Shown here: piece by piece, positions 1 to 53,500 of the stretch
Position numbering within the stretch: the stretch's first letter is position 1
How the letters are laid out: the number at the start of each line of letters is the position of its first letter
Sequence record: PZ445425.1
From: a phage
Strand: one strand, 5' to 3'
DNA length: 60,068 bases
Translations under genes and position numbers: made by a program
Notes under the pieces: model-generated
Databases searched by the model: none
Told to the model about the DNA's origin: nothing
Seen by the model: only the letters and a program-made list of their open reading frames with translations

Positions 1-1560
1 ATGGAGCTAAACCGACAACCTGATAACATGCCGCGAGTTGTCTGGAAACCACATCCAGGTTCACAGACACTCGCTCTATCCTGCCCCGCTGATATTATCC
101 TATACCACGGAACTCGCGGTCCTGGAAAAACGGACTGCCAGCTTATGCGTTTCCGTAAGAATGTTGGTGTAGGGTACGGTAAATTTTGGAAGGGTATTAT
201 ATTCGACCGTGAATATAAAAACCTTGATGACCTTGTAACTAAATCCCAGCGTTGGTTTCCTGAATTTAAAGACGGGGCTAAATTCCTTAGCTCTAAGTCT
301 GATTATAAATGGGTTTGGCCTACAGGTGAAGAGCTACTGTTCCGCGTTGCTTGTAAAGAAAAGGATTACTGGTCTTATCACGGTCACGAATACCCATTTA
401 TCGGATGGAACGAATTAACAAAATATCCGGACGGGCGTTTGTTTGAAGCTATGATGTCCTGTAACCGTTCATCTTTCTTACCAGAAGATAACCCAATTAT
501 TAATCCAGATGGTACGGTCACATATTTACCGGATATCCCTCTTGAAGTGTTTGCTACCAGTAACCCGTTTGGTGCGGGGCATAACTGGGTTAAGAAACGC
601 TTCATTGACGCTGCACCGATGGGTAAAATACTCAGGAAGACTACGCGAGTGTTTAACCCGAGGACGCAGAAAGACGAAGATGTGGTTACGACGCAATGCC
701 ATATCTTTGGTTCGTACCGTGAAAACAAAAACCTAAGTCCAAAATATATTGCAGAACTTATGTCTATCACAGACCCGAACAAGCGTGCTGCATGGTTGGG
801 CGGGAGCTGGGATATCACCTCCGGCGGTATGTTCGATGATCTGTGGCGTAGCACTGTTCATAAAATACGCCCATTCCCAATCCCATCAAGCTGGAAGATT
901 ACACGTTCTTTCGACTGGGGTTCTTCAAAACCATTCTCCGTTGGCTGGTGGGCTATTAGTGACGGTTCGGATGTTGTACGTGAAGATGGTACTACCTTCT
1001 CAACTGTTCGCGGTGACTTGTTCCGTATTAACGAATGGTACGGCACTAACGGTAAAACAAACGAAGGCCTACATTTGCTGGACTCAGAGATTGCAAGCGG
1101 TATACTGGAGCGGGAATTGGCCTGGGGTATACACGACCGTGTAGTTCCTGGACCTGCGGATAACTCTATTTGGGATTTGGAGAACAATAACTCTACCGCC
1201 GCAACAATGGCGAAGAAAATCCGTCTTAACGGCAAGCTGTATAACGGTATCCATTGGAAGAGAAGTGATAAATCTGCTGGGTCGCGTAAACGCGGATGGC
1301 AGAAAATGCGTGAGTTTCTTAAAGCTGCATTGAGGGAAGATGCGAACGGTAAACCTTTGCCGGGACCACGTGAAAATCCAGCAATGTATGTTTTCGATAA
1401 CTGCAATTATTTCTTTGAACTGGTTCCAAGTCTTCCGCGCGATGAAGTAGATCAGGACGACGTTGATACGGAATGTGAAGACCATATGGGCGATGAAGTA
1501 CGTTATATGGTTCTGGATCAAGCTGTTTATACAGGTGTCGGTAAAACTATCGGTATTTAA
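1..1560 (+). CDS. terL: terminase large subunit
   Basis: 519-aa ORF with Walker A-like GTRGPGKT near the N-terminus; first gene of the structural operon, directly followed by portal. N-terminus may extend beyond window start. Confidence 0.8.
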   Translation: MELNRQPDNMPRVVWKPHPGSQTLALSCPADIILYHGTRGPGKTDCQLMRFRKNVGVGYGKFWKGIIFDREYKNLDDLVTKSQRWFPEFKDGAKFLSSKSDYKWVWPTGEELLFRVACKEKDYWSYHGHEYPFIGWNELTKYPDGRLFEAMMSCNRSSFLPEDNPIINPDGTVTYLPDIPLEVFATSNPFGAGHNWVKKRFIDAAPMGKILRKTTRVFNPRTQKDEDVVTTQCHIFGSYRENKNLSPKYIAELMSITDPNKRAAWLGGSWDITSGGMFDDLWRSTVHKIRPFPIPSSWKITRSFDWGSSKPFSVGWWAISDGSDVVREDGTTFSTVRGDLFRINEWYGTNGKTNEGLHLLDSEIASGILERELAWGIHDRVVPGPADNSIWDLENNNSTAATMAKKIRLNGKLYNGIHWKRSDKSAGSRKRGWQKMREFLKAALREDANGKPLPGPRENPAMYVFDNCNYFFELVPSLPRDEVDQDDVDTECEDHMGDEVRYMVLDQAVYTGVGKTIGI

Positions 1561-1571
1561 CTGGAGGGTAT

Positions 1572-3068
1572 ATGGGTATTGATGCAACTCACCCGCTATA
1601 TGACAAGTGGAAGGATGCATGGGTTAAGTGCAACGACTGCTATGAGGGTGAAGATAAAATTAAGGAAGAAGGTGTTAAATATCTACCACCTTTAGCTTCC
1701 ATGATTATTGATGGGATGAATAATCCTAATGATTTGGGCTTTCAACGTTGGCTCGCTTATCGTCTGCGTGCTAACTTCCCTGACGATTATTCAAGTGCGG
1801 TCACAAACAATTTAGGTCTGTTGCACCAGAAGCCTCCTACAATCCAGCTTCCCCCTGAAATGGAATACATGCGGGAGCTGTGTACTGCGGATGGTGAAGA
1901 CATTATCGCTCTACTACGTCGCATCAACGAAATGCAGTTAAAAAATGGACGTTTAGGCCTGCTTCTGGACTTGCCGAAAGGTGAGGATGTAAATAACAGA
2001 CCTTATATTAGCGTTTATGATGCTTTATCCATTATCAACTGGGATGATGGTAAAGATGAATTAGGCAATATCAACTTGAACATGGTTGTTCTGGATGAAA
2101 GCGGGCCTGTACGTGTTAATCAGTTTGACTGGAAAGAAGAGAAGCGTTATCGCGTTCTGCAATTAGGTCCGATGGACACAGATGAAGTTGCAGGTGGGGC
2201 GGTCTACTCCCAGCATTTATTTATCAACAATACCAATTATGATGAAGGACAAATGATTGCTCCTTATTATAAAGGTAACACGCTGGACGAAATACCTTTC
2301 CAGTTTGTTAATACAACAGATATTACACCAGCACCGGAAGCGCCTCCATTGTTGGGGCTAGCTAACATCTGCCTAAGCATGTACCGAAGCGACGCTGATT
2401 ACCGTCAAAGTCTGCATATGCAGGGTCAGGACACGTTAGTTGTTGTTGGTGGCTCGGGTGAGAATGGAGATAAAGCCCCTCAGCGCATCGGTCCCGGAGC
2501 GGTCATTAACGTTGCTCTTGGGGGTGACGCTAAATATGTAGGCGTTAGCGGTGATGGTTTGTCCGAGCAACGCCTTGCATTGGCAGCGGATAAGCAGGAA
2601 GCTCAGATTAAAGCTGGGCAGATGGTAAACAACACCAAGAGCACGCAGGAATCAGGCGAAGCTATGAAAACGCGTATTGCTGCGCGTACCGCTAGCCTGA
2701 TCCGAATTGCGTATACTGGTGCAGCAGGTTTGGAAAACTTGCTGAAGGTTTGTGCTAAATGGATGGGTGCTGATCCCGAGAAGGTTGTGGTTAAGCCTAA
2801 TCTTGAATTTACCAAGAGTATGTTCAATGGTCAGGACTTTGTTCAAATTATTACTGCACGCAACCTTAAGGCTCCGATCAGCTTGAAGTCTATTCATGGC
2901 TGGCTTGTTGATCAGGGCTTAACCACACTAAGCTTTGAAGAAGAAATGGCAATTCTTGAAGAAGAGCTTAAGAAGTGGCCTCTGCCCGATGATGCTAAGG
3001 CTGATTTAAACGCAGAGCAGCAAGTAAACAAAGATCCTAAGGAAGACGACGCTTCCGATAAAGAATAG
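1572..3068 (+). CDS. portal protein
   Basis: 498-aa ORF immediately after terminase; size and acidic C-terminus typical of portals; synteny. Confidence 0.6.
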   Translation: MGIDATHPLYDKWKDAWVKCNDCYEGEDKIKEEGVKYLPPLASMIIDGMNNPNDLGFQRWLAYRLRANFPDDYSSAVTNNLGLLHQKPPTIQLPPEMEYMRELCTADGEDIIALLRRINEMQLKNGRLGLLLDLPKGEDVNNRPYISVYDALSIINWDDGKDELGNINLNMVVLDESGPVRVNQFDWKEEKRYRVLQLGPMDTDEVAGGAVYSQHLFINNTNYDEGQMIAPYYKGNTLDEIPFQFVNTTDITPAPEAPPLLGLANICLSMYRSDADYRQSLHMQGQDTLVVVGGSGENGDKAPQRIGPGAVINVALGGDAKYVGVSGDGLSEQRLALAADKQEAQIKAGQMVNNTKSTQESGEAMKTRIAARTASLIRIAYTGAAGLENLLKVCAKWMGADPEKVVVKPNLEFTKSMFNGQDFVQIITARNLKAPISLKSIHGWLVDQGLTTLSFEEEMAILEEELKKWPLPDDAKADLNAEQQVNKDPKEDDASDKE

Positions 3069-3162
3069 TTGCAACTTCCAAATTGATTGGTTTATATTAA
3101 CGAACACGGGCTGGGACGGCTCAGCCCCAAAAACGTCACACGGGTGACAACGGAGATAAGAA

Positions 3163-4035
3163 ATGAAAAAGAGTTCTGTAGCTATTAGTGTTGGTTTTGC
3201 TCTAATTAATCCACGCGCTCGCGGTGAAGGTGATGTGGAACTGGAATACGAATATGCATCTGCGGAAGAGATCCCGGCAGAGTTTGCTGCTCTTTACGCA
3301 GAGCAGGGTGGTAAATACGTTCTTGCAAAAGTCAAAGGTGTAGCACCTGCTGATAGCGTTCGTCGTCTGGAAAGTGCATTAGCAAAAGAACGTAACGATC
3401 ATCGTCAGGTGAAGCAACAGATTAGCGCACTTGGGCGTCCGGTTGAAGAAGTTCTTGCGGACCTTGATCGTATCCCTCAACTGGAAGCTGCCGCTAACGG
3501 TAAAGGTACTCCGGAAGACATCGAAAAGATGGTTAAAGCCCGTCTTGCGCCGCTTGAGCGTCAATTGCAAACTGTTATCACCGAGCGTGACACGGTTAAG
3601 CAGGAAATTGAAGGCTACCGCACTCGCGAAACTAAAGCGAAGATTAAAGATGCAGTTATTGCCGCTGCTTCTGGTGCTAAATTGCGTCCATCTGCTATCG
3701 AAGACGCTGTAACTTATGCACAGTTGCAGATGACCGTCGACGAGAACGGCAATGTGGTTACGAAAGATGGGGCTGGTGTAACTCCTTACCTGACTCCGGC
3801 GGACTGGCTGAACGAAATCCTTCCGAAGCGTCCGCACTGGGTTGAAGGATCTGCTGGTGGCGGTGCATCTGGTCCGGGCGCTGGCGGCCATCACGGTGAA
3901 GACCCATACAGTCACGACGGCTGGAACATCTCTAAGCAGATGAACCTCTGGAAAACTAACCAATCTTTAGCTAAACGTTTAGCTGAAAAGAATGGCGTAG
4001 ACCCGCTGAAGCCTGTACGTCCTGCTAAGAAATAA
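3163..4035 (+). CDS. head scaffolding protein (putative)
   Basis: 290-aa charged, Ala/Glu/Lys-rich helical protein between portal and major capsid genes. Confidence 0.45.
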   Translation: MKKSSVAISVGFALINPRARGEGDVELEYEYASAEEIPAEFAALYAEQGGKYVLAKVKGVAPADSVRRLESALAKERNDHRQVKQQISALGRPVEEVLADLDRIPQLEAAANGKGTPEDIEKMVKARLAPLERQLQTVITERDTVKQEIEGYRTRETKAKIKDAVIAAASGAKLRPSAIEDAVTYAQLQMTVDENGNVVTKDGAGVTPYLTPADWLNEILPKRPHWVEGSAGGGASGPGAGGHHGEDPYSHDGWNISKQMNLWKTNQSLAKRLAEKNGVDPLKPVRPAKK

Positions 4036-23553: not shown

Positions 23554-23833
23554 AACGCTTATGAAAAGCTGACAGGATTGCAAGTGTTACAGCACCCAAT
23601 CCGACGACGGTAGCATAAGTGAGTTGGGGTTGAACTTTAACAAAGCCATAATAGGTGCTAGGGATGTCTACAATCCCAAACGCCATAGCAAAGCTGGTCC
23701 CAAGTAGTGCTACAGCAAGGGCGCGTAATAACGCCCTGCTCATTGCTGTAAAGCCCTTCTCATTACTATCTCCGGTCATTATAACAACAATGATTAGAAA
23801 TAGCGAAACGACAACTAATAGATATTCCATCAT
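23552..23833 (-). CDS. small membrane protein
   Basis: 93 aa with two to three hydrophobic helices. Confidence 0.45.
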   Translation of the reverse strand: MMEYLLVVVSLFLIIVVIMTGDSNEKGFTAMSRALLRALAVALLGTSFAMAFGIVDIPSTYYGFVKVQPQLTYATVVGLGAVTLAILSAFHKR

Positions 23834-45269: not shown

Positions 45270-45494
45270 ATGGTCATGCTGAATAAAGTATATAGCACAA
45301 TGGGCTCGGATTATAAAGTTGTACGTCACCCGCGTACTGGTAAATTTGAAGCATACATCCGTCCAATGGGTGAAGGTTGGATGTATTACGGTACTTATGA
45401 TGACGCTGAGCAAGCTTATAAAGAAGCGGAAAGTGTAGCGGAAGCATCCGAAATTATGGCAAGGTACGACGTCGATGATTACTACCTTAACTAA
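45270..45494 (+). CDS. hypothetical small protein (lone plus-strand gene in minus module)
   Basis: 74 aa with RBS GGAGG; followed by a terminator. Confidence 0.45.
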   Translation: MVMLNKVYSTMGSDYKVVRHPRTGKFEAYIRPMGEGWMYYGTYDDAEQAYKEAESVAEASEIMARYDVDDYYLN

Positions 45495-45498
45495 CAAT

Positions 45499-45525
45499 AA
45501 AGGGCCAAATAGCCCTTTATTTATT
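45499..45525. terminator. bidirectional terminator
   Basis: aaagggc-caaata-gcccttt followed by a T-run. Confidence 0.65.
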
Positions 45526-47863
45526 CCTCTTCTCCTAAGTTTGCCATAATACCTTCAACATCTTGCGTAATGCGCCAAGCTGCGCCAGTGAATCCCAGTT
45601 TGATAGTCTCCTCCCGTGTTACCGGAACAAGCGCACCCATAGCAACCATCTCTTTGATCGTAGACTCAATTGCCGCGGACAATCCGTGGTGATAGTTTTT
45701 AAACGCGGACTTACTTGCAAGACGAGTAGTAATATCACCCCGCGTGATAATGCCTTCCTTACGCAGATCTACACGTTTAACTTTCACCCAATCTTTAGTT
45801 AGATAATTCACACAAACCTGGCACATAGTACGGATACGAGCTTCGTCATTAGTACCGATACCCCCACTATGCCATTCCTTCATAATGATATCCTGTCCAT
45901 GACGCACAAAGTCCAAGGCCCATTGAACATGATAGGTCTGCACAACCGGATTGATCCAGTTTTCTCCCACAGCTAACAGGGCGGATAGACGTAACACCTT
46001 CAGGTGAGCACGGTTCCAGGGCTGACGGATTGCTTCGTCTTTGGTTGCGTTAATATTACGGTCACATTCGTCGTTAAACTGATCACATAATGCTTCCGCA
46101 TCCGGACTAAACTGCACTTCAATACTTTGATGCTTTGCCATTGCGACTAAGGTGTGGTTAACAAGATGGCACACCATATCCCGCAAATGCTGATCCATTG
46201 TAGTCTGCTGGTTCTTGTTTAAAGGTGGTCGATCCCCTTCATAGCGGACAACATGGAAACGGGATAAGAAACCGTCCTCCATCATTTCACGGGTTAATGC
46301 TTCAAAGAACGTATCCGGTGTCGTTTCACCCATGATGCTATAGGCCACACCTTGTTGAGCTTCCGTATTATTAGCCTTATCAGAATAAGACATACCACCG
46401 ACAATAGACATCTGACCGGACTTTTGATAAACATCGGTAAGGTCGTTCTTGAAGCTTTGCATCGGTGAACCTGCTGGCGCCGTTGCCATCGCTTTAATAA
46501 TCTTACCAAACTCACCATTCAAGTTGATAAAAGATTGTTTGTCCGCAAAAGATTTACGCAGTGCGGAGCCGGAAGCACATCGGTCAAAAGATACAAAGCT
46601 ATGAATCTGCGGAAACGGTTCCTGAAGCTGGCTAACTATATTAGATAGCCCACTGTTCAACGTTTCTTTACCAACACCAGAACGAGCAATAAGGACGAAA
46701 TATCCATTAAGACCCGATTGCGGAATCTGCCAGACCTTCCCGCATACCCCAGCCATAAAGCCTAGCGCTGTCACAATAGAAATTTCTTTCACTGGTCGGA
46801 CGGAGGCTTTATAGATGTATTTCGCAAGCTCCCCAGCAAGCCCCGGCGGCCAGTCAATAGCGGTTGCATCAATAGATGTACTTTCTGCAACTACGGTCTG
46901 CCCCTGTGTTGTTTCAACAGTTACGGGCATTTCCACTACCTGTTGCATTGCACTGTGTGCCGCTTGCATACGGGCAGCATAATCCCGCGCCAGCGCCGCT
47001 ACGTTTTCCTGGGCAATGCGCTCACGCTCCATGCGACCGCGACACATACGCAAGCAACGGTCAATATGAACATTGTTCTTATTAGCCTTCTCACGTTTGC
47101 CCAGTGCGCTATAACGGAACAGACGACGACATTGCTCATTACTTTCCGTGTAAAATGCATACATAGAAATAAGGGCAAGATCTGCTTCAGACTGGGAAGG
47201 GAAACCCATTTCAACCCATTCACCATTGAATAACCGCGCATACTTATCGCCGTTATCCGCTTCAAGTGCACGCTGATGAATAGTTGCATCATCTTCTACC
47301 GGATCTTTTTCTACCAGTTCAATTTCATATGTCTTGCGCTGAAGATCAATTTCATTCACAAGCATAGTAAGGTAATGATCACGTTCTGCAACTGGTTTGT
47401 TATAAACAGGATTGCCCGTGCAAATAATAAAACGCTCCTGACTATAAACCTCGACACCATCACGTCGACGACCTTTACCGATGTTCCCTCTTAACCACAG
47501 GTGGACGCCCAAGCCTGAGCGACTTACTTCGGTGTAAGTATCGAACGCGGTCATGATCTGTTCGAAGCGGCGCAACTGTTCTGGCGTCGTGTGCTTCTTG
47601 GGATCCGGTTCGTTGGTTGCGTTCTTCACATCCAGGTCGATGCAGGTGAAAGGGTCTTGCGCAGTAAGCACGAAGCCTATATAAGGTTTGTTGAAATGCG
47701 CGGCGCAACCTTTGGCAGCTTCAAACGTCATTAGCATATCCGGATCGGTAACGTCCGCCGCCATAAGACGTCCGATATCGTTGTCCCATACGAGCGGCTT
47801 TTTATCCGCATCGGCGACCGCCCATTGTGGGAAAGCTTTAATTTCAGCGGGAAATAGTTCCAT
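45521..47863 (-). CDS. primase-polymerase / helicase-like replication protein
   Basis: 780 aa; N-terminal Prim-Pol-like region with IDLD motif, central P-loop-like GVGKET. Confidence 0.5.
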   Translation of the reverse strand: MELFPAEIKAFPQWAVADADKKPLVWDNDIGRLMAADVTDPDMLMTFEAAKGCAAHFNKPYIGFVLTAQDPFTCIDLDVKNATNEPDPKKHTTPEQLRRFEQIMTAFDTYTEVSRSGLGVHLWLRGNIGKGRRRDGVEVYSQERFIICTGNPVYNKPVAERDHYLTMLVNEIDLQRKTYEIELVEKDPVEDDATIHQRALEADNGDKYARLFNGEWVEMGFPSQSEADLALISMYAFYTESNEQCRRLFRYSALGKREKANKNNVHIDRCLRMCRGRMERERIAQENVAALARDYAARMQAAHSAMQQVVEMPVTVETTQGQTVVAESTSIDATAIDWPPGLAGELAKYIYKASVRPVKEISIVTALGFMAGVCGKVWQIPQSGLNGYFVLIARSGVGKETLNSGLSNIVSQLQEPFPQIHSFVSFDRCASGSALRKSFADKQSFINLNGEFGKIIKAMATAPAGSPMQSFKNDLTDVYQKSGQMSIVGGMSYSDKANNTEAQQGVAYSIMGETTPDTFFEALTREMMEDGFLSRFHVVRYEGDRPPLNKNQQTTMDQHLRDMVCHLVNHTLVAMAKHQSIEVQFSPDAEALCDQFNDECDRNINATKDEAIRQPWNRAHLKVLRLSALLAVGENWINPVVQTYHVQWALDFVRHGQDIIMKEWHSGGIGTNDEARIRTMCQVCVNYLTKDWVKVKRVDLRKEGIITRGDITTRLASKSAFKNYHHGLSAAIESTIKEMVAMGALVPVTREETIKLGFTGAAWRITQDVEGIMANLGEEE

Positions 47864-47874
47864 GACTTATCCTT

Positions 47875-48090
47875 TTACAGAGAACCAACCATTGCACAAC
47901 CGATAGCAGCAAATAAGTGCTTCTTAGTCTCGTTGATCACTTTCTCTGCATCCAGATAGCTCTCATAATGTCCAAGGTAAATAATAGTCCCTGCAACCAT
48001 AATATAAGCTGTGCGGTAATGCATGTAATGCCCAATAAACCAACCCTGTTCCCGAAGCTTAGTTTGACCAAATTCATAAAGTACCATCAT
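47875..48090 (-). CDS. hypothetical small protein
   Basis: 71-aa ORF. Confidence 0.35.
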   Translation of the reverse strand: MMVLYEFGQTKLREQGWFIGHYMHYRTAYIMVAGTIIYLGHYESYLDAEKVINETKKHLFAAIGCAMVGSL

Positions 48091-48344
48091 GACCTCCGAC
48101 GCTTATCGCCTTGCATCTTTTCCAGAGCGGGCACTGCTAAAGAGCGTTTGTAGATGTACTGGTTAGCAATTCTGATAGCGCCCGGGATGCTGTCACGTAT
48201 GCGCGACATCTTAAACTTAGATATGCCATAACGGTCTTCGATTTCCGCTGCCGTTATGTAGTTCAAATCAAATTCCAATTCGTGATCCATAATACCCTCC
48301 GTTACAACCGTCCACACAATACACAGTAAAGCCTTACTTTGCAA
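48087..48344 (-). CDS. small HTH DNA-binding protein (putative regulator)
   Basis: 85 aa with helix-turn-helix-like segment and basic C-terminus. Confidence 0.35.
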   Translation of the reverse strand: MQSKALLCIVWTVVTEGIMDHELEFDLNYITAAEIEDRYGISKFKMSRIRDSIPGAIRIANQYIYKRSLAVPALEKMQGDKRRRS

Positions 48345-48355
48345 CTATTTTTGCA

Positions 48356-49099
48356 TTATTGCGGAGTTGTGATAATATGGTTACTAACTTCTAACATAAC
48401 GTCCTGCGGCTCCCTTCCCTGTCTTAAGCTAATAAGCCAATTATCAATGTTCGGAAGAATATTTTTAGCCTGCTCAGCATCCCTGTATAGTGCAAGGTCT
48501 ACCCAATGAGCGCCGAGCTTGACACGGATAGCGGTAGCGGTTTCATAATGGTGCAGGGAACAGGTAGGCCAGCGACCGCGATTATCCCAGTCCCGAACAT
48601 CGCCGCTCCGGCGCATCCTGTACCAACGATGTGTCAATTTATCCGCTTCCTTATCTGTCAGAGGATCCCCTTTGAGCAAGGCTTGGCGCTCTATCCATGC
48701 TTTAAGCTCGACGTTTTCCTTGCGTCCCGCCTTACCCTTATCTTCTTTTACCTTAAATGCTTCTTCATATGGGTCGTTACCCTTGCCCATGTGGTAATTG
48801 AATTTGCCCGTATAGCTGCGAAGCTCTTTGGCATCCAGATCATGACCCAGCTTATCGCTAACCCATGCAAGGAAAGCCGCCCTTTCTGCATCCAGCTTTC
48901 CCGCTTTTTGTCTTACAGCTTTTTTAACAGGCTGTTCCACATCTTCGTTGAAGTAATCCTCCACCATAGCAAGTGCCTGTGATTTGGTTGGCGCACCGCG
49001 CAACTGCGAGCAAGCTTGCACAACCCAGGCAGCAAAACACAAATCTTTAACCACAGTTTTAGATGTTAATGGTGCGGATGTGATAGTTTCTTCGCTCAT
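48356..49099 (-). CDS. hypothetical protein (possible replication initiation factor)
   Basis: 247-aa ORF immediately downstream of the iteron/AT-rich region. Confidence 0.45.
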   Translation of the reverse strand: MSEETITSAPLTSKTVVKDLCFAAWVVQACSQLRGAPTKSQALAMVEDYFNEDVEQPVKKAVRQKAGKLDAERAAFLAWVSDKLGHDLDAKELRSYTGKFNYHMGKGNDPYEEAFKVKEDKGKAGRKENVELKAWIERQALLKGDPLTDKEADKLTHRWYRMRRSGDVRDWDNRGRWPTCSLHHYETATAIRVKLGAHWVDLALYRDAEQAKNILPNIDNWLISLRQGREPQDVMLEVSNHIITTPQ

Positions 49100-49123
49100 A
49101 AATCCTCCTAGTCAACTGGTGAA

Positions 49124-49394
49124 GCCACTATAAAACAGACATTAGCTATTTGCAAGGATTGTTTTAATATAGTGCTTAGTGGCGTACATAGTGGGCAAAA
49201 TGTGTATAGTGCGCCGTTACTGGCTTTATAAAAGTTTGCCACTATAAACCACTATTCCACTATTCACTAATTTTTATTTTTGACACAGAGTAAAGTTTAT
49301 AAGTTTACGGTTTTCCCCTTATTACCCCGTTTTCAAACAAAGAATTAGTAGTAGTAGTGAAACATAGTGAATGCCACTATACCACTATACTATG
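49124..49394. repeat. iteron-like CACTAT/ATAGTG repeats
   Basis: At least 11 copies of CACTAT or its complement in both orientations, including GCCACTATAAACCACTATTCCACTATTCACTAA. Confidence 0.65.
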
Positions 49395-49429
49395 CATTTT
49401 ATGAAATCTCGGTTGGCTCGCTCCCTATA

Positions 49430-49560
49430 AACTTATAAACTTTCAGTCAACTAACTAAAACAAATATAATTAAACTAATAGTAAATAATAACTATAAATA
49501 TATATAAAATAAGGATTTATTATTAATGTATATATTACCTATTGGTATTATTTGACGAGT
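49430..49560. other. AT-rich tract (possible DNA-unwinding element)
   Basis: Over 80 percent A+T with tataaac and tatata repeats, adjacent to the iterons. Confidence 0.5.
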
Positions 49561-49767
49561 TTATGGTCATTATATAAACCATATAAAACTTCATAAACCT
49601 GAACGGATGCAGATCAAAAATGAGAAGTCAAGTGCTTTGAGGGAAATTTATTGAACTATTGTGATCGGAAGGTATATCAAGCTATAATGCGCTTAATCGC
49701 GGGATATTGGAGGAGGACTTTATTGAGCGGTTAACCGGACCAGTAGGAGGGCTGGCCCGGAAGTAGT

Positions 49768-50094
49768 TTAGAGCTGTACAGGTGTGAAGTGGGCTAGCGT
49801 ATCGTCGGACATAATACCCGACAGTTTTTCGCTTATCCAGTCGGACCAAATGCTATCCGCTTCCTGGCGGTGCACAAACCAGATTTCGGATGTGCCTTCT
49901 TTGCGCATCGGTTGCACTTCTACAAGGAACTTGTCCTGCATAAGGCGGGTGAAGCAGACGCTGGTCATTGGAACCGGCTTTTCGTCTTTATTGTAATAAG
50001 GGACCAATATTTTATTTCCGAAGTCGGCAACTTCATAAACCGTTCCTTTGCGAAGCCCTCTGATGTCTGTGTAAGAGCGGATGAATGTTCTCAT
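49768..50094 (-). CDS. hypothetical protein
   Basis: 108-aa ORF. Confidence 0.45.
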   Translation of the reverse strand: MRTFIRSYTDIRGLRKGTVYEVADFGNKILVPYYNKDEKPVPMTSVCFTRLMQDKFLVEVQPMRKEGTSEIWFVHRQEADSIWSDWISEKLSGIMSDDTLAHFTPVQL

Positions 50095-50096
50095 GT

Positions 50097-50273
50097 TTAT
50101 TTCCTTACGAATACAGAGCCGACAAATAATGTTGATTGAGTGGCAGCTTGCTCGATTAATTCGCCAACAAGCTGGGACTGCGTTAGAGGTTTAAGGCCTT
50201 CTTTGGCCCGTGCTTCATTTACACGGCGCTGAAGGTCTTTTAGGTATCGAGTTGCGAAGCTGTCTAATTGCAT
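50097..50273 (-). CDS. hypothetical small protein (58 aa, absent from ORF track)
   Basis: ATG at 50273 preceded by TAACCACATTAAC box, hairpin and RBS; translated by hand. Confidence 0.4.
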   Translation of the reverse strand: MQLDSFATRYLKDLQRRVNEARAKEGLKPLTQSQLVGELIEQAATQSTLFVGSVFVRK

Positions 50274-50326
50274 TTTCGTTACTCCTAGGGCTCCCGCAGA
50301 AGCCCGTTGGTTAATGTGGTTATAGA

Positions 50327-50941
50327 TTATGCGTCCAGTCCGTTATATTTGCGCCAGGCGTAGAACTGAATGGCGACCGTTGTCCCGTTGTAAGAAGGCA
50401 TTGCAGCTTTCATTTCTTTCAGCTCCGGCGTGCGGCCCAGTTCGGCTAAAAGTTTGTCGCCCATTGCCCACACTTCGGCGGTTTTTCCTTTCAGAGGCTT
50501 GCGAGCGCCATTTTTGAAATCACAGCGAGCAGCTTTTGCATCCTGTTTTGGCGCGGCAGCTTTTGGCTCTTCAATTTTGATTTCAGAAACCTGCGTGGCA
50601 GCTTTTGCATGTTTCATATCTTTCTCTTCCTCCTGCTCCAGAGCTTCGAGGCAGCTTTTGACAATTTCCGGATTTACCATCGGGCGAAGTACCGATACGC
50701 TGGCGGCTGGAGCGGCGGTCGGTGCTGGGACTTTCTGCTCGGGCTTTTGCGCTTTTTCGTGCTCGCGCAGTACCTGAAGCACTTCCTTTTCGACGATGTA
50801 AAAACCGATATCGCCCTGATGGATTAACTGTTCGTGTGCGTCGCGTGCAACCTGACCCCAGCGAGTTTTCAGAGCGCGGCGTGCATTCGTTTTCATGGTG
50901 TAACGCATTTTGTCCTGTTCGCGGTGAGTTACTTTAGACAT
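50327..50941 (-). CDS. hypothetical protein
   Basis: Start set to ATG 50941 with strong RBS AAGGAG. Confidence 0.5.
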   Translation of the reverse strand: MSKVTHREQDKMRYTMKTNARRALKTRWGQVARDAHEQLIHQGDIGFYIVEKEVLQVLREHEKAQKPEQKVPAPTAAPAASVSVLRPMVNPEIVKSCLEALEQEEEKDMKHAKAATQVSEIKIEEPKAAAPKQDAKAARCDFKNGARKPLKGKTAEVWAMGDKLLAELGRTPELKEMKAAMPSYNGTTVAIQFYAWRKYNGLDA

Positions 50942-51014
50942 GGTATAGCTCCTTTCGTTAATGTTAGTTTGCTTATTACTGCCCACCGTAATGATGAGCA
51001 GTGTATAAGAAAAC

Positions 51015-51263
51015 TTATTGCACAATTGCTACGAAATCGGCGGTTGCGATATCCATGCTTGCGAAAGCAACGATGCCATAGTCGGTGTCGTTCTCGGCGT
51101 TAAACGCTTTGAGGAACTGCTGTACCGCTGCTTTATGGTTAAGCGTTACGTCGATAGCATAGTCCCAGCTATAGACTTTGCGCTTGCCAAAACCTTTAAC
51201 TGCAATGCGTGCACCTTTGGTGTTAGTTGGTGCCAAAAATTTGGTGACGATAGAAGTAGCCAT
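51015..51263 (-). CDS. hypothetical small protein
   Basis: 82-aa ORF. Confidence 0.45.
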   Translation of the reverse strand: MATSIVTKFLAPTNTKGARIAVKGFGKRKVYSWDYAIDVTLNHKAAVQQFLKAFNAENDTDYGIVAFASMDIATADFVAIVQ

Positions 51264-51332
51264 GATGTATATCCTCGTTTTGTTTAAGTTGACTTATTAT
51301 TGCCCAGTCAGATCAACTAGGCAAGATATAAA

Positions 51333-51497
51333 TCAACTATTTTCGCTTACATAATCCAGTGCAGCTTCGAGGAAATAAAATTCTTCCTGCTTATATAAGC
51401 TGATTGCCCACTCCAGCTGAGCGCGGGTAAGGTGGCGATATTTGTTGTCGATGCAATAACTGCGACCGAAGTACATGATAGTGAAGTAACTAGACAT
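51333..51497 (-). CDS. hypothetical small protein (54 aa, absent from ORF track)
   Basis: RBS GGAGG 7 nt before ATG 51497; preceded by TTAACCACA box; track ORF 51347..51562 in another frame judged spurious. Confidence 0.4.
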   Translation of the reverse strand: MSSYFTIMYFGRSYCIDNKYRHLTRAQLEWAISLYKQEEFYFLEAALDYVSENS

Positions 51498-51814
51498 AAT
51501 GCGCCTCCAAGTGTGGTTAAAAAGTAGTACCGTGTTGCTATGGGTACATAATAGCGATGCATTGTGATATTGAATAGGCCAAACGTGCTATTTTGATCTT
51601 GTTTTGCATCTAGTGAAAATTATGCTTGTATCTCATATTTAGCACTAATGGCCTAACTAACATCACACGATCTGGTCTACGCGCGTGCATACATACATAT
51701 AAGGAGCGCCGGACAGGATCGGACCGACCAGGGGCGCACAACCGTCCCTATCTGCCCTGTAAACTGGTCCACGGACCAGTCCAAAATATTTTTATAAAAA
51801 GATGCAAAAAGGTG

Positions 51815-51843
51815 TAGACATATGATCAATCTAACCCTACTAT
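51815..51843 (+). promoter_or_regulatory. candidate sigma70-like promoter for the rightward small-gene module
   Basis: TAGACA, 17-nt spacer, TACTAT about 50 nt upstream of the first plus-strand gene. Confidence 0.25.
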
Positions 51844-51892
51844 ATACACATACCGCAAGGGTACTACAAATTAACTTAAAGGGGTTTACATC

Positions 51893-52096
51893 ATGTCTAT
51901 TCGTAACGTTATCTGTGTAATGGTTGCAAACAATAATTTTGGTTTCGTAGAAGGTGCACAGTATAAAATGGATCTTAAAACTCGTTGCATTATTAAAGGT
52001 GAAGAGGAATGGCGTGCAGTGGTAGAAGATCGCGGCAATATCTACATCTATAGTTCTGATACAATGAAAACTATTGCCGTCTTCGAATTTAACTAA
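51893..52096 (+). CDS. hypothetical small protein
   Basis: 67-aa ORF. Confidence 0.45.
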   Translation: MSIRNVICVMVANNNFGFVEGAQYKMDLKTRCIIKGEEEWRAVVEDRGNIYIYSSDTMKTIAVFEFN

Positions 52097-52164
52097 GCTA
52101 ACTTATACAATGGGCATTAGTACAGTGCCCATTAATAAGCTAACTAATTATAACGAGGTGTATT

Positions 52165-52350
52165 ATGTCTACGAACACTGTGAAGTCTGTAAATAATAGC
52201 AACAGAACATTTAAAGTTATGTGCTATGGCGAATATATCGGAGACGTTACAGCTCCCAGCCGCATCGCTGCGGAAGACTTCGTCCGTACAGAGATGGAGC
52301 TTGGAATCGCCGATTTTGCAGACCTTATCGAACTAGTAGAGGTGTACTAA
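52165..52350 (+). CDS. hypothetical small protein
   Basis: 61-aa ORF with RBS. Confidence 0.45.
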   Translation: MSTNTVKSVNNSNRTFKVMCYGEYIGDVTAPSRIAAEDFVRTEMELGIADFADLIELVEVY

Positions 52351-52351
52351 C

Positions 52352-52495
52352 ATGTCACGCAAATACACGCTTACACGCGCACAACATGCTTTATTATTGC
52401 AGGTTATGCGCATGGAGTACGAAGAGACTACATGGGCGCAAGCTATGCAGACAGGGCGAGAGTTCTACGCGCAACTAATAGCACAAAATGCCTAG
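52352..52495 (+). CDS. hypothetical small protein (47 aa, absent from ORF track)
   Basis: ATG 1 nt after upstream stop; translated by hand. Confidence 0.35.
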   Translation: MSRKYTLTRAQHALLLQVMRMEYEETTWAQAMQTGREFYAQLIAQNA

Positions 52496-52553
52496 ACAAC
52501 ATGATCGGTCTGGTGGATACTACACACATCAACCAAACAACGGGGTAAACAAA

Positions 52554-52781
52554 ATGCGTAGTTTCAAATGTGTAAGCGTAAATGCTACTGGTAACGGTCT
52601 GTTCACGGCAGGTAATGTATATGACTTCAACATGGAAAGTTATAAAGACACAACGCTTACAGGTGTAATGTTCGGTGGCGCTCGTGTCGTTCGCTGCCAT
52701 TTAAACAAGAACACGGAAAATGAATATACCCTTATCAGTCGCTACACGGGCGAGCCGTTAGCTGTGTTCCATGCAGCTTAA
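52554..52781 (+). CDS. hypothetical small protein
   Basis: Track ORF 52488..52781 trimmed to internal ATG. Confidence 0.4.
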   Translation: MRSFKCVSVNATGNGLFTAGNVYDFNMESYKDTTLTGVMFGGARVVRCHLNKNTENEYTLISRYTGEPLAVFHAA

Positions 52782-52807
52782 GCTATAACGCACACAGCGC
52801 CGCGCTA

Positions 52808-52930
52808 GCGAGCTAATGTACATAGGTAATGGTAATGCATTAGCTCGGGCGAAACAGGCGCACAGCGTCGCACACAGCTCGCACAGCGCACACAGACCCA
52901 CGCAGGCCCAGCCGCGCGACCCGACCCATC
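52808..52930. repeat. structured GC-rich repeat region
   Basis: 10-bp inverted repeat cgagctaatg / cattagctcg enclosing tandem ggtaatg; then repeated CGCACAG / CACACAG units. Confidence 0.55.
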
Positions 52931-53248
52931 CTTTTCCAGGTACTTGGATCGCTACGCCCTGCCCTGTCTATCCTGATAGTATCCTTGTTTGAAAATCTAA
53001 CTCGTCAACTATGTTGTTGCCGACATACACACCCATCACTTTACTATCCACCTACATACATGACCCCACCTACCTTCTTTTTGAATATATTGCGCTCATC
53101 CTTTCTAAATATATGGATTTTGGTAGTAAATTCTGAGTCGTCAACGTATAATTCGTCTTGTAGTTTCTCCATAGCTACCATCTTTAAGCGGATGCAACCA
53201 ATTTCTATCAATTCACACCTGTTTTAGAGCAGCAAGGAGGAGGTATTT

Positions 53249-53500
53249 ATGTGCGACACCCGTGCAAGCGCTGCACCCAGCACCTCCAGCAATGTGGTTA
53301 CAGAGGTAAATGCAATGCGATTAGGCCCATATCGCGGGTATTATGGTCGGGCAGCATGGAATGACGCTACTCAACGGTTTGAAGGCTGGATTATCTGTCC
53401 GGAACGTGTTAAATTTCATTCCGTAAAAGAGAAAAATATCGTTCTTAATTTTCAAAAATGTGTCACTAAATATGTAGAGGAGCAAGAAGAATGCGTGTAG
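53249..53500 (+). CDS. hypothetical small protein
   Basis: 83 aa, RBS AAGGAGGAGG. Confidence 0.5.
   Translation: MCDTRASAAPSTSSNVVTEVNAMRLGPYRGYYGRAAWNDATQRFEGWIICPERVKFHSVKEKNIVLNFQKCVTKYVEEQEECV

What the first reader, a model, noticed from the sequence alone, without database searches (positions are those of the whole stretch)
49100..49767. 670-bp intergenic region with iterons and an AT-rich tract: candidate replication origin
Inside an otherwise tightly packed leftward operon, this gap holds at least 11 copies of CACTAT/ATAGTG in both orientations (49124-49394), an agtagtagtag repeat and a strongly AT-rich tract (49430-49560). Iterons plus an unwinding element is the classic origin architecture. 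It sits immediately upstream of an unassigned 247-aa gene and near the primase-helicase and HTH genes.
Basis: partly seen in the sequence, partly recalled or inferred. Interest (0 to 1): 0.6.

Follow-up and report, generated by a model that had tools for sequence, protein, structure and literature searches.

The report
Phage replication origin with two repeat sets
This 668-bp gene-free stretch of an E. coli Seuratvirus is most likely the phage's replication origin.

Summary
The gap 49100-49767 carries 10 exact and 3 near copies of CACTAT/ATAGTG, and it contains the most AT-rich stretch of the 60-kb window.

Comparing 19 related phages shows two independent repeat systems.
One copy covers the -10 of that gene's promoter.
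It changes to GTTTTG or AATTTTAT together with the allele of the C-terminal part of the primase-helicase. That part is predicted to end in a winged helix.

In a 38-kb scan of five genomes, only the helicase's C-terminal two-thirds and the motif-2 zone of the gap follow this split, apart from one unrelated mosaic segment. This matches the origin layout of SaPI islands, and of satellite phage P4 as I recall it. The G-C skew minimum falls at 49,475.

In two relatives a ~3.5-kb direct terminal repeat begins inside this gap.

Verdict: probable origin (about 0.6) with an adjoining regulatory array. It is a new member of a known kind, and nothing has been tested experimentally.

The parts
49100..49767 (.). 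Whole 668-bp intergenic region between the 108-aa gene and the 247-aa gene. A gap of 606-1035 bp occupies this position in every Seuratvirus examined.
49444..49557 (.). AT-rich tract (16.7% G+C), proposed DNA-unwinding element. It is the lowest-GC stretch of the window, its sequence is highly conserved across alleles, and the global minimum of cumulative G-C skew lies at 49,475.
49558..49599 (-). Motif-2 cluster 2a. Three direct copies (GGTTTATG 49592-49599, imperfect AGTTTTAT about 49583-49590, GGTTTATA 49573-49580) and one inverted copy (AGTTTATG 49558-49565, plus strand). Proposed helicase iterons on one side of the AT tract.
49426..49442 (-). Motif-2 cluster 2b. Two tandem AGTTTATA copies on the other side of the AT tract, preceded by a conserved TTGACT.
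49293..49309 (+). Motif-2 cluster 2c. AGTTTATA and AGTTTACG in inverted orientation relative to 2b. It forms a perfect 16-nt inverted repeat with 2b, with 120 nt between the arms.
   Evidence: (I4)
49355..49388 (.). Motif-1 array I. Two TATAGTGG copies on the minus strand (49375-80, 49383-88) facing two on the plus strand (49355-59 near copy, 49364-69). The homologous position in ECP2304 and yong3 holds the left end of the terminal repeat.
49346..49358 (-). It is conserved in protein classes A-C and altered in class D.
49169..49269 (.). Motif-1 array II. Four copies on the minus strand (49240, 49250, 49258, near copy 49265) facing four on the plus strand (49169, near copy 49177, 49188, 49206), spaced 7-18 bp.
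49127..49155 (-). Sigma-70-like promoter for the 247-aa gene: TTGCAA, 17 nt, TATAGT. Its -10 hexamer is itself a motif-1 copy (49126-49131). An AGGAGG ribosome-binding site and the ATG follow at 49097-49109.
49597..49767 (.). About 170 bp that is nearly invariant in the nine aligned Seuratviruses. It contains the hairpin below and a plus-strand promoter-like site (TTGTGA, 18 nt, TATAAT, 49659-49688). Function unknown.
49735..49760 (-). 9-bp hairpin (CCGGGCCAG / CTGGTCCGG) starting 8 nt after the stop of the 108-aa gene, with no U tract. It is annotated as a terminator in SA80RD and SA126VB. More distant relatives have a hairpin of different sequence at the same place (read by eye, not tested by a tool).
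48356..49099 (-). 247-aa gene of unknown function, inferred partner of motif 1. Only 11 clusters exist in 5.8 billion proteins, all from Seuratvirus-like phages, with 40-100% identity between alleles. It has no Pfam, NCBIfam or PADLOC match and no fold match.
45521..47863 (-). 780-aa primase-polymerase plus helicase (NrS-1-like helix-bundle domain; DUF3987 on relatives, and below cut-off here). Its N-terminal primase region (residues 61-264) matches the SaPI5 primase-helicase 7OLA. Inferred partner of motif 2.
45524..45823 (-). Residues 681-780 of the primase-helicase, a predicted winged-helix domain. It is the most allele-divergent part of the protein (33-43% identity between alleles).
49376..52969 (.). 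Predicted direct terminal repeat, placed by homology with ECP2304 and yong3. The right end falls at CCCTGTCT|ATCCTGATAGTA (52,969/52,970). The left end is about 50 nt left of cluster 2b and is uncertain by roughly 25 nt. It has not been shown for this phage.

Best explanation
The gap is a composite cis-acting region at the head of the replication operon.

**Proposed origin core (about 49293-49599).** It consists of 7-8-bp iterons (RGTTTAYR): three direct and one inverted copy on one side, two direct copies on the other side of a 114-bp tract of 17% G+C, and two more inverted copies 120 bp away. I infer the following steps.
1. The C-terminal winged-helix domain of the phage's primase-polymerase/helicase binds these iterons.
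2. The helicase loads itself on both sides of the AT tract and melts it.
3. Its primase-polymerase domain primes synthesis.

This is the mechanism described for SaPI Rep proteins, and for P4 alpha as I recall it.

**Adjacent arrays.** Thirteen TATAGTGG copies lie next to the core in two head-to-head arrays, and one copy lies on the -10 of the downstream promoter. I infer that these bind the 247-aa product of the first gene of the operon, which would repress its own promoter and may build a nucleoprotein complex that modulates the origin.

**What is shown and what is inferred.** Shown: the repeat anatomy, the two independent co-variations, the predicted winged-helix fold, the AT and skew extremes, and the promoter-like site. 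Inferred: binding, melting, priming and autoregulation.
For: 1. **Motif 2 follows the helicase allele.** In 19 phages, GTTTAT (6-9 copies per gap) occurs only with helicase allele 1, GTTTTG (4-7 copies) only with allele 2, and ATTTTA-type repeats (5-8 copies) with allele 3. The change happens in all three clusters at once, while the AT tract between them stays conserved.
2. **The alleles differ where DNA binding is expected.** They share an almost identical N-terminal 280 aa and diverge from about residue 280 onward, most strongly in residues 681-780, at 33-43% identity.
3. **Genome-scale control.** A scan of 22-60 kb in 200-bp steps against two allele-1 and three allele-2 genomes found this split only at 45,401-47,000 (the helicase's C-terminal two-thirds), at 49,401-49,600 (the motif-2 zone) and in one mosaic segment at 52.9 kb. 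The sequence between the helicase and the gap does not follow the split.
5. **Relation to a known system.** The N-terminal primase region (residues 61-264) of the protein matches the SaPI5 primase-helicase 7OLA (E = 7.6e-11). SaPI origins are described as 6-12 penta- or hexanucleotide iterons split around an AT-rich region and read by the Rep C-terminal winged helix (PMC9371898).
6. **Composition.** The AT tract is the lowest-GC stretch of the window. The cumulative G-C minimum is at 49,475, not at the switch of transcription direction near 52.7-53.2 kb.
7. **Motif 1 follows the downstream gene, not the helicase.** ATAGTG goes with protein classes of 56-100% identity, ATAGGG with the 42-46% classes, TAGGGG with P0011, and GGAATA where the gene is replaced by three small genes. 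The two motifs assort independently of each other.
8. **Promoter overlap.** A sigma-70-like promoter has a motif-1 copy as its -10. In Seurat and CAjan the -35 is kept and an ATAGGG copy sits at the same place.
Against: - There is no experimental evidence of any kind: no binding, melting, initiation or marker-frequency data.
- The co-variation rests on three helicase alleles, so there are few independent switch events, and linkage within a mosaic region cannot be fully excluded.
- yong3 keeps GTTTATA-like repeats although its winged helix is only 45% identical to allele 1, so the protein-to-motif mapping is not one-to-one.
- Unlike SaPI, the proposed origin lies 1.4-1.7 kb upstream of the helicase gene, not immediately downstream of it.
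- GC skew in phages largely follows transcription, so the skew minimum is weak evidence.
- Foldseek matches of the C-terminal domain to ORC and MCM are not significant (best E = 0.035).
- The 247-aa protein gave no fold or family match, so even its DNA binding is inferred.
- In two relatives a terminal-repeat boundary lies in the same gap, so some of the repeats may serve end formation instead.
- Pantoea phage Vid5, which has a homologous primase, has no comparable gap within 4.5 kb upstream.
Confidence: 0.6

Rival explanations
1. The region is only a transcription-control region. It would hold a terminator or attenuator after the early genes, promoters for the replication operon, and operator arrays for two regulators. 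The AT tract would be promoter or UP-element DNA, and no replication would start here.
For: - A hairpin follows the stop of the 108-aa gene, and other groups annotated a terminator and a promoter in this gap.
- A sigma-70-like promoter has a motif-1 copy on its -10.
- The gap separates the small early genes from the replication genes.
- In class E phages the first downstream gene is small (66-71 aa). By eye it looks like a helix-turn-helix protein, and its yong3 homologue was labelled 'regulatory protein cox' by the depositor.
Against: - It does not explain why motif 2 changes with the winged-helix allele of the helicase and with nothing else in 38 kb.
- It does not explain why those repeats bracket the most AT-rich 114 bp of the genome.
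- Promoter-like sites in the region are no more frequent than in shuffles (5 found against 3.3 +/- 2.0).
- In class E phages an array lies about 500 bp upstream of the promoter, on the far side of the core.
Confidence: 0.15
2. The repeats serve genome-end biology. The gap would hold the left boundary of a ~3.6-kb direct terminal repeat, and the repeats would direct end cutting or repeat duplication. Alternatively they would act as a stop signal for stepwise DNA injection, as at the inner edge of the phage T5 terminal repeat.
For: - ECP2304 carries an exact 3,695-bp terminal repeat and yong3 an exact 3,424-bp one.
- In both, the left boundary lies about 50 nt past cluster 2b, 389-394 nt upstream of the first downstream gene. 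The right boundary in both lies immediately before (G/A)TCCATCCTGATAGTA.
- The repeat contains exactly the leftward block of small early genes.
- The related Pseudomonas phage iggy has terminal repeats confirmed by Nanopore reads (PMC10484667).
- The T5 analogy rests on my own knowledge; I did not check it here.
Against: - The small terminase subunit is 98.9-100% identical in all the E. coli Seuratviruses (91.6% and 78.7% in STP-SP5 and yong3) whatever their motif-1 or motif-2 type, so neither repeat is a TerS specificity site.
- The Seurat authors inferred headful packaging from the large terminase subunit (PMC4342423).
- Neither motif recurs at the right boundary.
- The terminal repeat is not shown for this phage, and how the two records' ends were determined is unknown.
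- This reading does not exclude an origin at the same place.
Confidence: 0.12
3. One reading: the CACTAT repeats are the origin iterons, and the 247-aa protein is the initiator (like lambda O or a plasmid Rep) that melts the AT tract and recruits the helicase.
For: - The repeats and the adjacent gene change together.
- The layout of AT tract, repeats, a repeat over the promoter and then the gene resembles iteron plasmids.
Against: - In class E phages and yong3 the gene is replaced by unrelated genes of 66-93 aa, while the helicase and polymerase genes stay.
- The repeats are 8 bp long and arranged head to head, not 17-22-bp direct iterons.
- There are no DnaA boxes.
- This version leaves the helicase-linked motif 2 unexplained.
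Confidence: 0.1
4. The nearly invariant 170 bp (49597-49767) encodes a small RNA or a small protein, and that is the main function of the gap.
For: - The segment is almost invariant in nine phages, more so than the flanking coding sequence.
- A plus-strand promoter-like site scores 10 of 12.
- KS_A8 annotates a 43-aa ORF here.
Against: - No Rfam family matches.
- Folding is not clearly better than shuffles: z = -1.97 on the minus strand and -0.29 on the plus strand.
- A 1-nt deletion in this window cuts the 43-aa ORF to 15 codons.
- This reading says nothing about the repeats.
Confidence: 0.03

Closest known systems
Replication origins of Staphylococcus aureus pathogenicity islands (SaPI ori with Rep or PriRep self-loading helicases)
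   Same: - Short iterons lie on both sides of an AT-rich region, in both orientations.
- The initiator is the helicase itself and reads the iterons through a C-terminal winged helix.
- Iteron sequence is specific to the cognate helicase.
- SaPI5 PriRep5 is, like this protein, a primase fused to a helicase, and it is the best PDB sequence match through its primase region.
   Different: - The SaPI ori lies immediately downstream of rep. Here it lies 1.4-1.7 kb upstream, with three genes in between.
- The primase part here is an NrS-1-like primase-polymerase with a helix-bundle domain.
- A second, independent array for another protein adjoins the core.
- The element belongs to a virulent phage and probably sits at a terminal-repeat boundary.
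- Only the N-terminal primase region (residues 61-264) matched 7OLA by sequence.
Satellite phage P4 alpha protein with ori and crr (from my own knowledge, not checked here)
   Same: - One polypeptide combines primase, helicase and a C-terminal winged-helix origin-binding domain.
- Short octamer repeats occur in direct and inverted orientation, in two separated clusters.
   Different: - In P4 the two repeat regions are about 4.5 kb apart.
- The P4 primase is of a different type.
- No sequence similarity to P4 alpha was tested here.
Iteron plasmids (pPS10, F, R6K, P1) with Rep proteins
   Same: The layout of AT-rich tract, repeats and adjacent gene, with a repeat copy over that gene's promoter, suggests autoregulation.
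   Different: - The repeats are 8 bp, not 17-22 bp, and are head to head rather than direct.
- There are no DnaA boxes.
- The 247-aa protein shows no Rep fold.
- The helicase is phage-encoded and appears to recognise its own sites.
Non-coding repeat region at the inner edge of the phage T5 terminal repeat, the injection stop signal (from my own knowledge)
   Same: A large non-coding region rich in direct and inverted repeats lies at the inner boundary of a long terminal repeat that carries the earliest genes.
   Different: - Two-step injection is not known for Seuratviruses.
- There are no DnaA boxes.
- The repeats here co-vary with replication and neighbouring genes.

Membership tests
SaPI/P4-type origin of a self-loading primase-helicase | Multiple short (5-8 bp) iterons on both sides of an AT-rich region | tested here: met
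   RGTTTAYR has 4 copies at 49558-49599 and 2 at 49426-49442, either side of a 114-bp tract of 16.7% G+C, plus 2 more at 49293-49309. Seven of the 32 window copies lie in 49290-49600 (P = 3e-10).
SaPI/P4-type origin of a self-loading primase-helicase | At least two iterons on each side, pointing in opposite directions (as stated in PMC9371898) | tested here: inconclusive
   One side has 3 direct and 1 inverted copy. The other side has 2 direct copies next to the tract, and its 2 inverted copies lie 120 bp further out.
SaPI/P4-type origin of a self-loading primase-helicase | The initiator is the helicase and carries a C-terminal winged-helix DNA-binding domain | tested here: met
SaPI/P4-type origin of a self-loading primase-helicase | Iteron sequence is specific to the cognate helicase C-terminal domain | tested here: met
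   Three helicase alleles go with three iteron types in 19 phages without exception. In a 38-kb scan of five genomes, the helicase's C-terminal two-thirds was the only coding segment to follow the split. This is comparative evidence, not biochemical.
SaPI/P4-type origin of a self-loading primase-helicase | Origin immediately downstream of the rep gene (SaPI arrangement) | tested here: not met
   The core lies 1.4-1.7 kb upstream of the helicase gene, separated from it by the 247-, 85- and 71-aa genes.
SaPI/P4-type origin of a self-loading primase-helicase | Helicase binds and melts the origin, and replication starts there | not testable with these tools
   This needs gel-shift and KMnO4 footprinting, marker-frequency sequencing, or an ori-plasmid assay.
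Iteron-plasmid origin (Rep type) | 17-22-bp direct iterons bound by a Rep protein with tandem winged-helix domains | tested here: not met
Iteron-plasmid origin (Rep type) | DnaA boxes next to the AT-rich region | tested here: not met
   No TTATCCACA with up to one mismatch occurs in 49050-49800.
pac site recognised by the small terminase subunit | Repeats match the specificity of the cognate TerS | tested here: not met
   TerS is 98.9-100% identical across the E. coli Seuratviruses, which carry four motif-1 types and two of the three motif-2 types.
Boundary region of a long direct terminal repeat (T5-like) | Lies at the inner boundary of a long terminal repeat that carries the early genes | tested here: inconclusive
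   Met by homology in two relatives (ECP2304 and yong3). Not shown for this phage, whose record has no terminal redundancy.
Known RNA families (Rfam) | Match to a curated covariance model | tested here: not met
   No match at gathering score anywhere in the window. No tRNA or tmRNA was found.

The most novel reading that the evidence does not exclude
The gap and the genes next to it would form a swappable 'two-key' replicon-identity cassette placed exactly at the terminal-repeat boundary. One key is the helicase winged helix with its iterons. The other is a DNA-binding protein of a previously unseen fold (the 247-aa product, or unrelated small proteins in other lineages) with head-to-head arrays. 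Both would have to match for the origin to fire, or for the genome end to be defined. Their rapid, independent exchange among phages that are otherwise about 95% identical would be driven by competition between co-infecting relatives, as a form of replicon incompatibility or exclusion.
Probability: 0.15. Interest if true: 0.7.

Novelty: new member of a known kind. Interest (0 to 1): 0.5.

Why it matters
- **A gap in knowledge.** My literature searches found no description of a replication origin for Seuratviruses or other Queuovirinae. These phages are now widely used, for example in the BASEL collection and in work on 7-deazaguanine DNA.
- **A testable model.** The analysis names the probable origin to within about 300 bp, the likely recognition domain of the helicase, and three natural specificity variants. 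Binding, swap and marker-frequency experiments are therefore straightforward.
- **Reach of the mechanism.** It suggests that the SaPI-style self-loading primase-helicase mechanism also operates in virulent phages of enterobacteria.
- **A new candidate DNA-binding family.** The 247-aa family of unknown fold is flagged as a probable sequence-specific DNA binder with a known target.
- **Annotation.** Seuratvirus virion DNA probably has ~3.5-kb terminal repeats starting in this gap, which matters for genome annotation and engineering.

Tried and rejected
- **RNA searches.** Rfam and the tRNA scan found nothing in the window.
- **RNA folding of the invariant 170 nt.** It was not clearly better than shuffles, so I did not pursue a structured RNA.
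- **Homology search with the helicase C-terminal 220 aa alone.** It returned a single hit. The full-length query was needed.
- **Other sources of loci.** IMG/VR gave only 3 loci, and the exact look-up of the 108-aa protein found nothing.
- **Metagenome contig ends near cluster 2b (L019, L025).** I considered them as evidence for genome termini and rejected this. They fall at the junction between conserved and variable sequence, where assemblies of mixed strains break, and other contigs span the gap.
- **NrS-1 primase recognition sites.** NrS-1 primase recognises 5'-GTGG/GTGA (PMC8718748), and motif 1 contains GTGG. I rejected this as a coincidence, because the primase and helix-bundle region (first ~280 aa) is 100% identical in phages whose motif 1 is TATAGGGT.
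- **TerS as partner of either repeat.** Rejected.
- **Co-partition of a segment at 52.9 kb with the helicase allele.** This is patchwork presence and absence in a mosaic region, not a third linked site.
- **More distant relatives.** Pantoea phage Vid5 has no comparable gap. Nonagvirus ChristophMerian has a 1-kb gap upstream of its replication genes with different repeats (TTTATAAAT and others), which I did not analyse further.
- **Literature.** I found no paper on ECP2304 or yong3.
Full report
**What the sequence is.** The window is the genome of an E. coli siphovirus of the genus Seuratvirus (Queuovirinae). For this region its closest relative in GenBank is phage phiG7 (98% identity); KS_A8, KurtStettler, Seurat, CAjan and about 30 others also match. 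The record opens at the large terminase gene. Genes run rightward up to about 24 kb, leftward from there to about 52.7 kb, and rightward again after that.

**Checking the observation.**
- The gap 49100-49767 is bounded by the ATG of a 247-aa gene and the stop of a 108-aa gene, both leftward.
- CACTAT/ATAGTG is no more frequent than chance over the whole window (30 copies against 28.8 in shuffles), but ten copies lie in 49126-49388. The binomial P is 1.4e-16, and 2000 shuffles of the gap gave a mean of 0.47 and a maximum of 6.
- Three more copies keep the TAGTG core. The consensus is (T/A)ATAGTGG.
- The copies are ordered. Four on one strand face four on the other at 49169-49269, two face two at 49355-49388, and one lies at 49126-49131.
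- The agtagtagtag run (49346-49358) and the AT-rich tract are present. The tract 49430-49560 has 16.8% G+C and is the lowest-GC stretch of the 60 kb.

**The gap is conserved but its repeats are not.** Every Seuratvirus examined has a gap of 606-1035 bp at this position. An alignment of nine gaps, read in the direction of transcription, shows this order:
1. A ~170-bp nearly invariant segment (49767-49597).
2. A short variable block.
3. A well-conserved AT-rich ~100 bp.
4. A second short variable block.
5. A fully variable half that reaches the downstream gene.

**Motif 1 follows the downstream gene.** The 247-aa protein is unusually variable among phages that are otherwise 90-100% identical. 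By tblastn, identity falls into groups at 99.6%, 91-93%, 55-63% and 42-44%, and ten of the 33 Seuratvirus records that match this region have no homologue at all. Only 11 clusters exist among 5.8 billion proteins. Counting hexamers in 19 gaps gives a clean split:

| Downstream gene | Dominant repeat | Copies per gap |
|---|---|---|
| 247-aa protein, 56-100% identical to the window's | ATAGTG | 6-10 |
| Seurat, CAjan, slur01 and P0009 classes (42-46% identical) | ATAGGG | 9-12 |
| P0011 class | TAGGGG | 8 |
| Gene replaced by three small genes (GottfriedDienst, Skure, ECP2304, L014) | GGAATA | 9-10 |

- A sigma-70-like promoter (TTGCAA, 17 nt, TATAGT; 49155-49127, minus strand) lies 28 nt upstream of the ATG. 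Its -10 hexamer is itself a motif-1 copy. In Seurat and CAjan the -35 is kept and an ATAGGG copy sits at the same place.
- The simplest reading is that the first gene after the gap encodes the protein that binds these arrays and represses its own promoter.
- In class E phages, arrays also lie on the far side of the core, about 500 bp from the promoter. The arrays are therefore tied to the core and not only to the promoter.

**Motif 2 follows the helicase.** The two short variable blocks, together with a third site further downstream, hold a second repeat.
- In the window it reads RGTTTAYR. Three direct and one inverted copy lie at 49558-49599, two tandem copies at 49426-49442, and two inverted copies at 49293-49309. 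The last two sites form a perfect 16-nt inverted repeat.
- In Greed, SA80RD, WildeMaa, SA126VB, GottfriedDienst, Skure, ECP2304 and L014, all three sites read GTTTTG instead. In two metagenomic phages (L015, L017) they read AATTTTAT.
- This split does not follow motif 1. ATAGTG occurs with all three motif-2 types, and ATAGGG with two of them.
- It does follow the 780-aa primase-helicase. That protein has three alleles with an almost identical N-terminal 280 aa. They diverge from about residue 280 onward, down to 33-43% identity in residues 681-780.
- As a control, I scanned 22-60 kb of the window in 200-bp steps against two allele-1 and three allele-2 genomes. The only segments that were at least 90% identical in allele-1 genomes and at most 85% in allele-2 genomes were 45,401-47,000, the helicase's C-terminal two-thirds. 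The next best partition scores were a mosaic segment at 52.9 kb and 49,401-49,600, the motif-2 zone.
- The sequence between the helicase and the gap (the primase domain and the small genes) does not follow the split. Plain linkage is therefore an unlikely explanation.

**What the helicase C-terminus looks like.**
- The protein has an NrS-1-like helix-bundle domain; its relatives carry DUF3987, which here scores below cut-off. Its best PDB sequence match is the SaPI5 primase-helicase 7OLA.
- A model of residues 541-780, built from 51 homologues, has pLDDT 92.
- Foldseek ranks ORC and MCM subunits first, but not significantly.

**Comparison with the known SaPI origin.** The published description of SaPI origins is 6-12 penta- or hexanucleotide iterons, half on each side of an AT-rich region, with copies in both orientations. 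They are read by the winged helix at the C-terminus of a self-loading helicase (PMC9371898). The core of this gap matches that description, with one difference: the SaPI ori follows the rep gene, whereas here it precedes the helicase gene by 1.4-1.7 kb.

**Composition.** The cumulative G-C count has its global minimum at 49,475, inside the AT tract, and its maximum at 23,666. The leftward genes at 49.8-52.7 kb have neutral or positive skew, unlike the leftward genes at 24-49 kb. The switch therefore sits at the gap and not where transcription diverges. This agrees with an origin but is weak evidence in a phage.

**An unexpected finding: terminal repeats.**
- Two GenBank records carry exact direct terminal repeats. 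ECP2304 has 1-3695 equal to 59,896-63,590, and Hafnia phage yong3 has 1-3424 equal to 59,400-62,823.
- In both, the left boundary lies in this gap, about 50 nt beyond cluster 2b and 389-394 nt upstream of the first downstream gene. The right boundary in both lies immediately before (G/A)TCCATCCTGATAGTA.
- Mapped onto the window, the repeat would span about 49,376-52,969. The AT tract, clusters 2a and 2b, the invariant segment and the early genes would be inside it. The motif-1 array II, cluster 2c, the promoter and the 247-aa gene would be outside.
- I could not find how those ends were determined. The window itself has no terminal redundancy.
- A related Pseudomonas phage has terminal repeats confirmed by Nanopore reads (PMC10484667), whereas the Seurat authors inferred headful packaging (PMC4342423).
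- The small terminase subunit is 98.9-100% identical across all motif types found in the E. coli Seuratviruses, so the repeats are not its specificity sites.
- The boundary does not conflict with an origin here. It does leave open that some repeats, especially motif-1 array I, take part in end formation.

**Other features of the gap.**
- A 9-bp hairpin starts 8 nt after the stop of the 108-aa gene (49735-49760). It is annotated as a terminator in two relatives. More distant phages have a hairpin of different sequence at the same place (read by eye).
- The invariant 170 nt do not fold clearly better than shuffles and match no Rfam family.
- A 43-aa ORF annotated here in KS_A8 is broken in the window by a 1-nt deletion.

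**Verdict.**
- The region is most likely the phage's replication origin, of the self-loading primase-helicase kind (confidence about 0.6). Next to it lies an array-plus-promoter module for the product of the first gene of the operon.
The architecture and conclusion are right, but the CACTAT repeats are assigned the wrong role.
- It is a new member of a known kind. The independently swapping second module, the unknown fold of its protein and the position at a terminal-repeat boundary are the parts that go beyond the known examples.
- All functional steps are inferred from comparison and prediction. None has been tested.

Noticed in passing
window ~49,376 and ~52,969; L021/L022 (ECP2304), L030/L031 (yong3): Two Seuratvirus records carry exact 3.4-3.7-kb direct terminal repeats with homologous boundaries. 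The repeat holds exactly the leftward block of small early genes. Most GenBank Seuratvirus records, including this window, lack the second copy, and Seurat was described as a headful packager.
   Followed up: partly
window 45521-47863 (breakpoint near residue 280, about nt 47,020): The primase-helicase exists in at least three alleles. Their N-terminal primase domains are nearly identical, but the helicase and winged-helix parts are only 33-81% identical. This implies repeated recombination at the domain boundary.
   Followed up: yes
L010 2046-2794, L014 1958-2715, L031 4809-5006: In some lineages the 247-aa gene is replaced by three small genes (66-71, 93 and 89-113 aa). The first is 59% identical to the yong3 gene labelled 'regulatory protein cox'. 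The second has a weak AP2 DNA-binding match (E = 2e-4, below the Pfam cut-off).
   Followed up: partly
window 49597-49767: About 170 bp of non-coding DNA is nearly invariant in the nine aligned Seuratviruses, more conserved than the neighbouring genes. It includes a CU-rich hairpin loop and a plus-strand promoter-like site (TTGTGA, 18 nt, TATAAT) that points away from the AT tract. Its function is unexplained.
   Followed up: partly
window 49108-49242 (minus strand) and 49606-49734 (plus strand): Homologous short ORFs are annotated inside the gap in related records: 44 aa in KurtStettler, KS_A8 and WildeMaa, and 43 aa in KS_A8. The first lies over the repeat arrays. The second is cut short in this window by a 1-nt deletion. 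Both look like annotation artefacts.
   Followed up: partly
window 48087-48344: The small gene after the 247-aa gene (85 aa here, 67 aa in relatives) is also allelic, at 47-99% identity. Its classes largely follow those of the 247-aa gene, so the two may travel as one cassette.
   Followed up: partly
window 52,700-53,250: A second large intergenic region (~550 bp) lies where leftward and rightward transcription diverge. It contains a run of CACAGC/GCACAG repeats (52,761-52,890) just inside the predicted right end of the terminal repeat, and its content is highly mosaic between relatives.
   Followed up: partly
L002 2790-3314, L020 3724-4188 and 6064-6597, L022 2250-2774, L031 4189-4812: HNH homing-endonuclease genes are inserted at varying points around the gap and the primase gene in different relatives. 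This fits a recombination-prone region.
   Followed up: no
L024 628-1666 (Nonagvirus ChristophMerian): The sister genus has a ~1-kb gene-free region upstream of its replication genes. It has its own repeats (TTTATAAAT, TCACCGAAAA) and a 24-nt inverted repeat, and may be the equivalent element.
   Followed up: partly
window 49126-49388: Motif 1 (TATAGTGG or TATAGTGA) contains GTGG/GTGA, the preferred primase recognition sites reported for the NrS-1 primase-polymerase. I judged this a coincidence, because phages with an identical primase domain carry TATAGGGT instead.
   Followed up: yes
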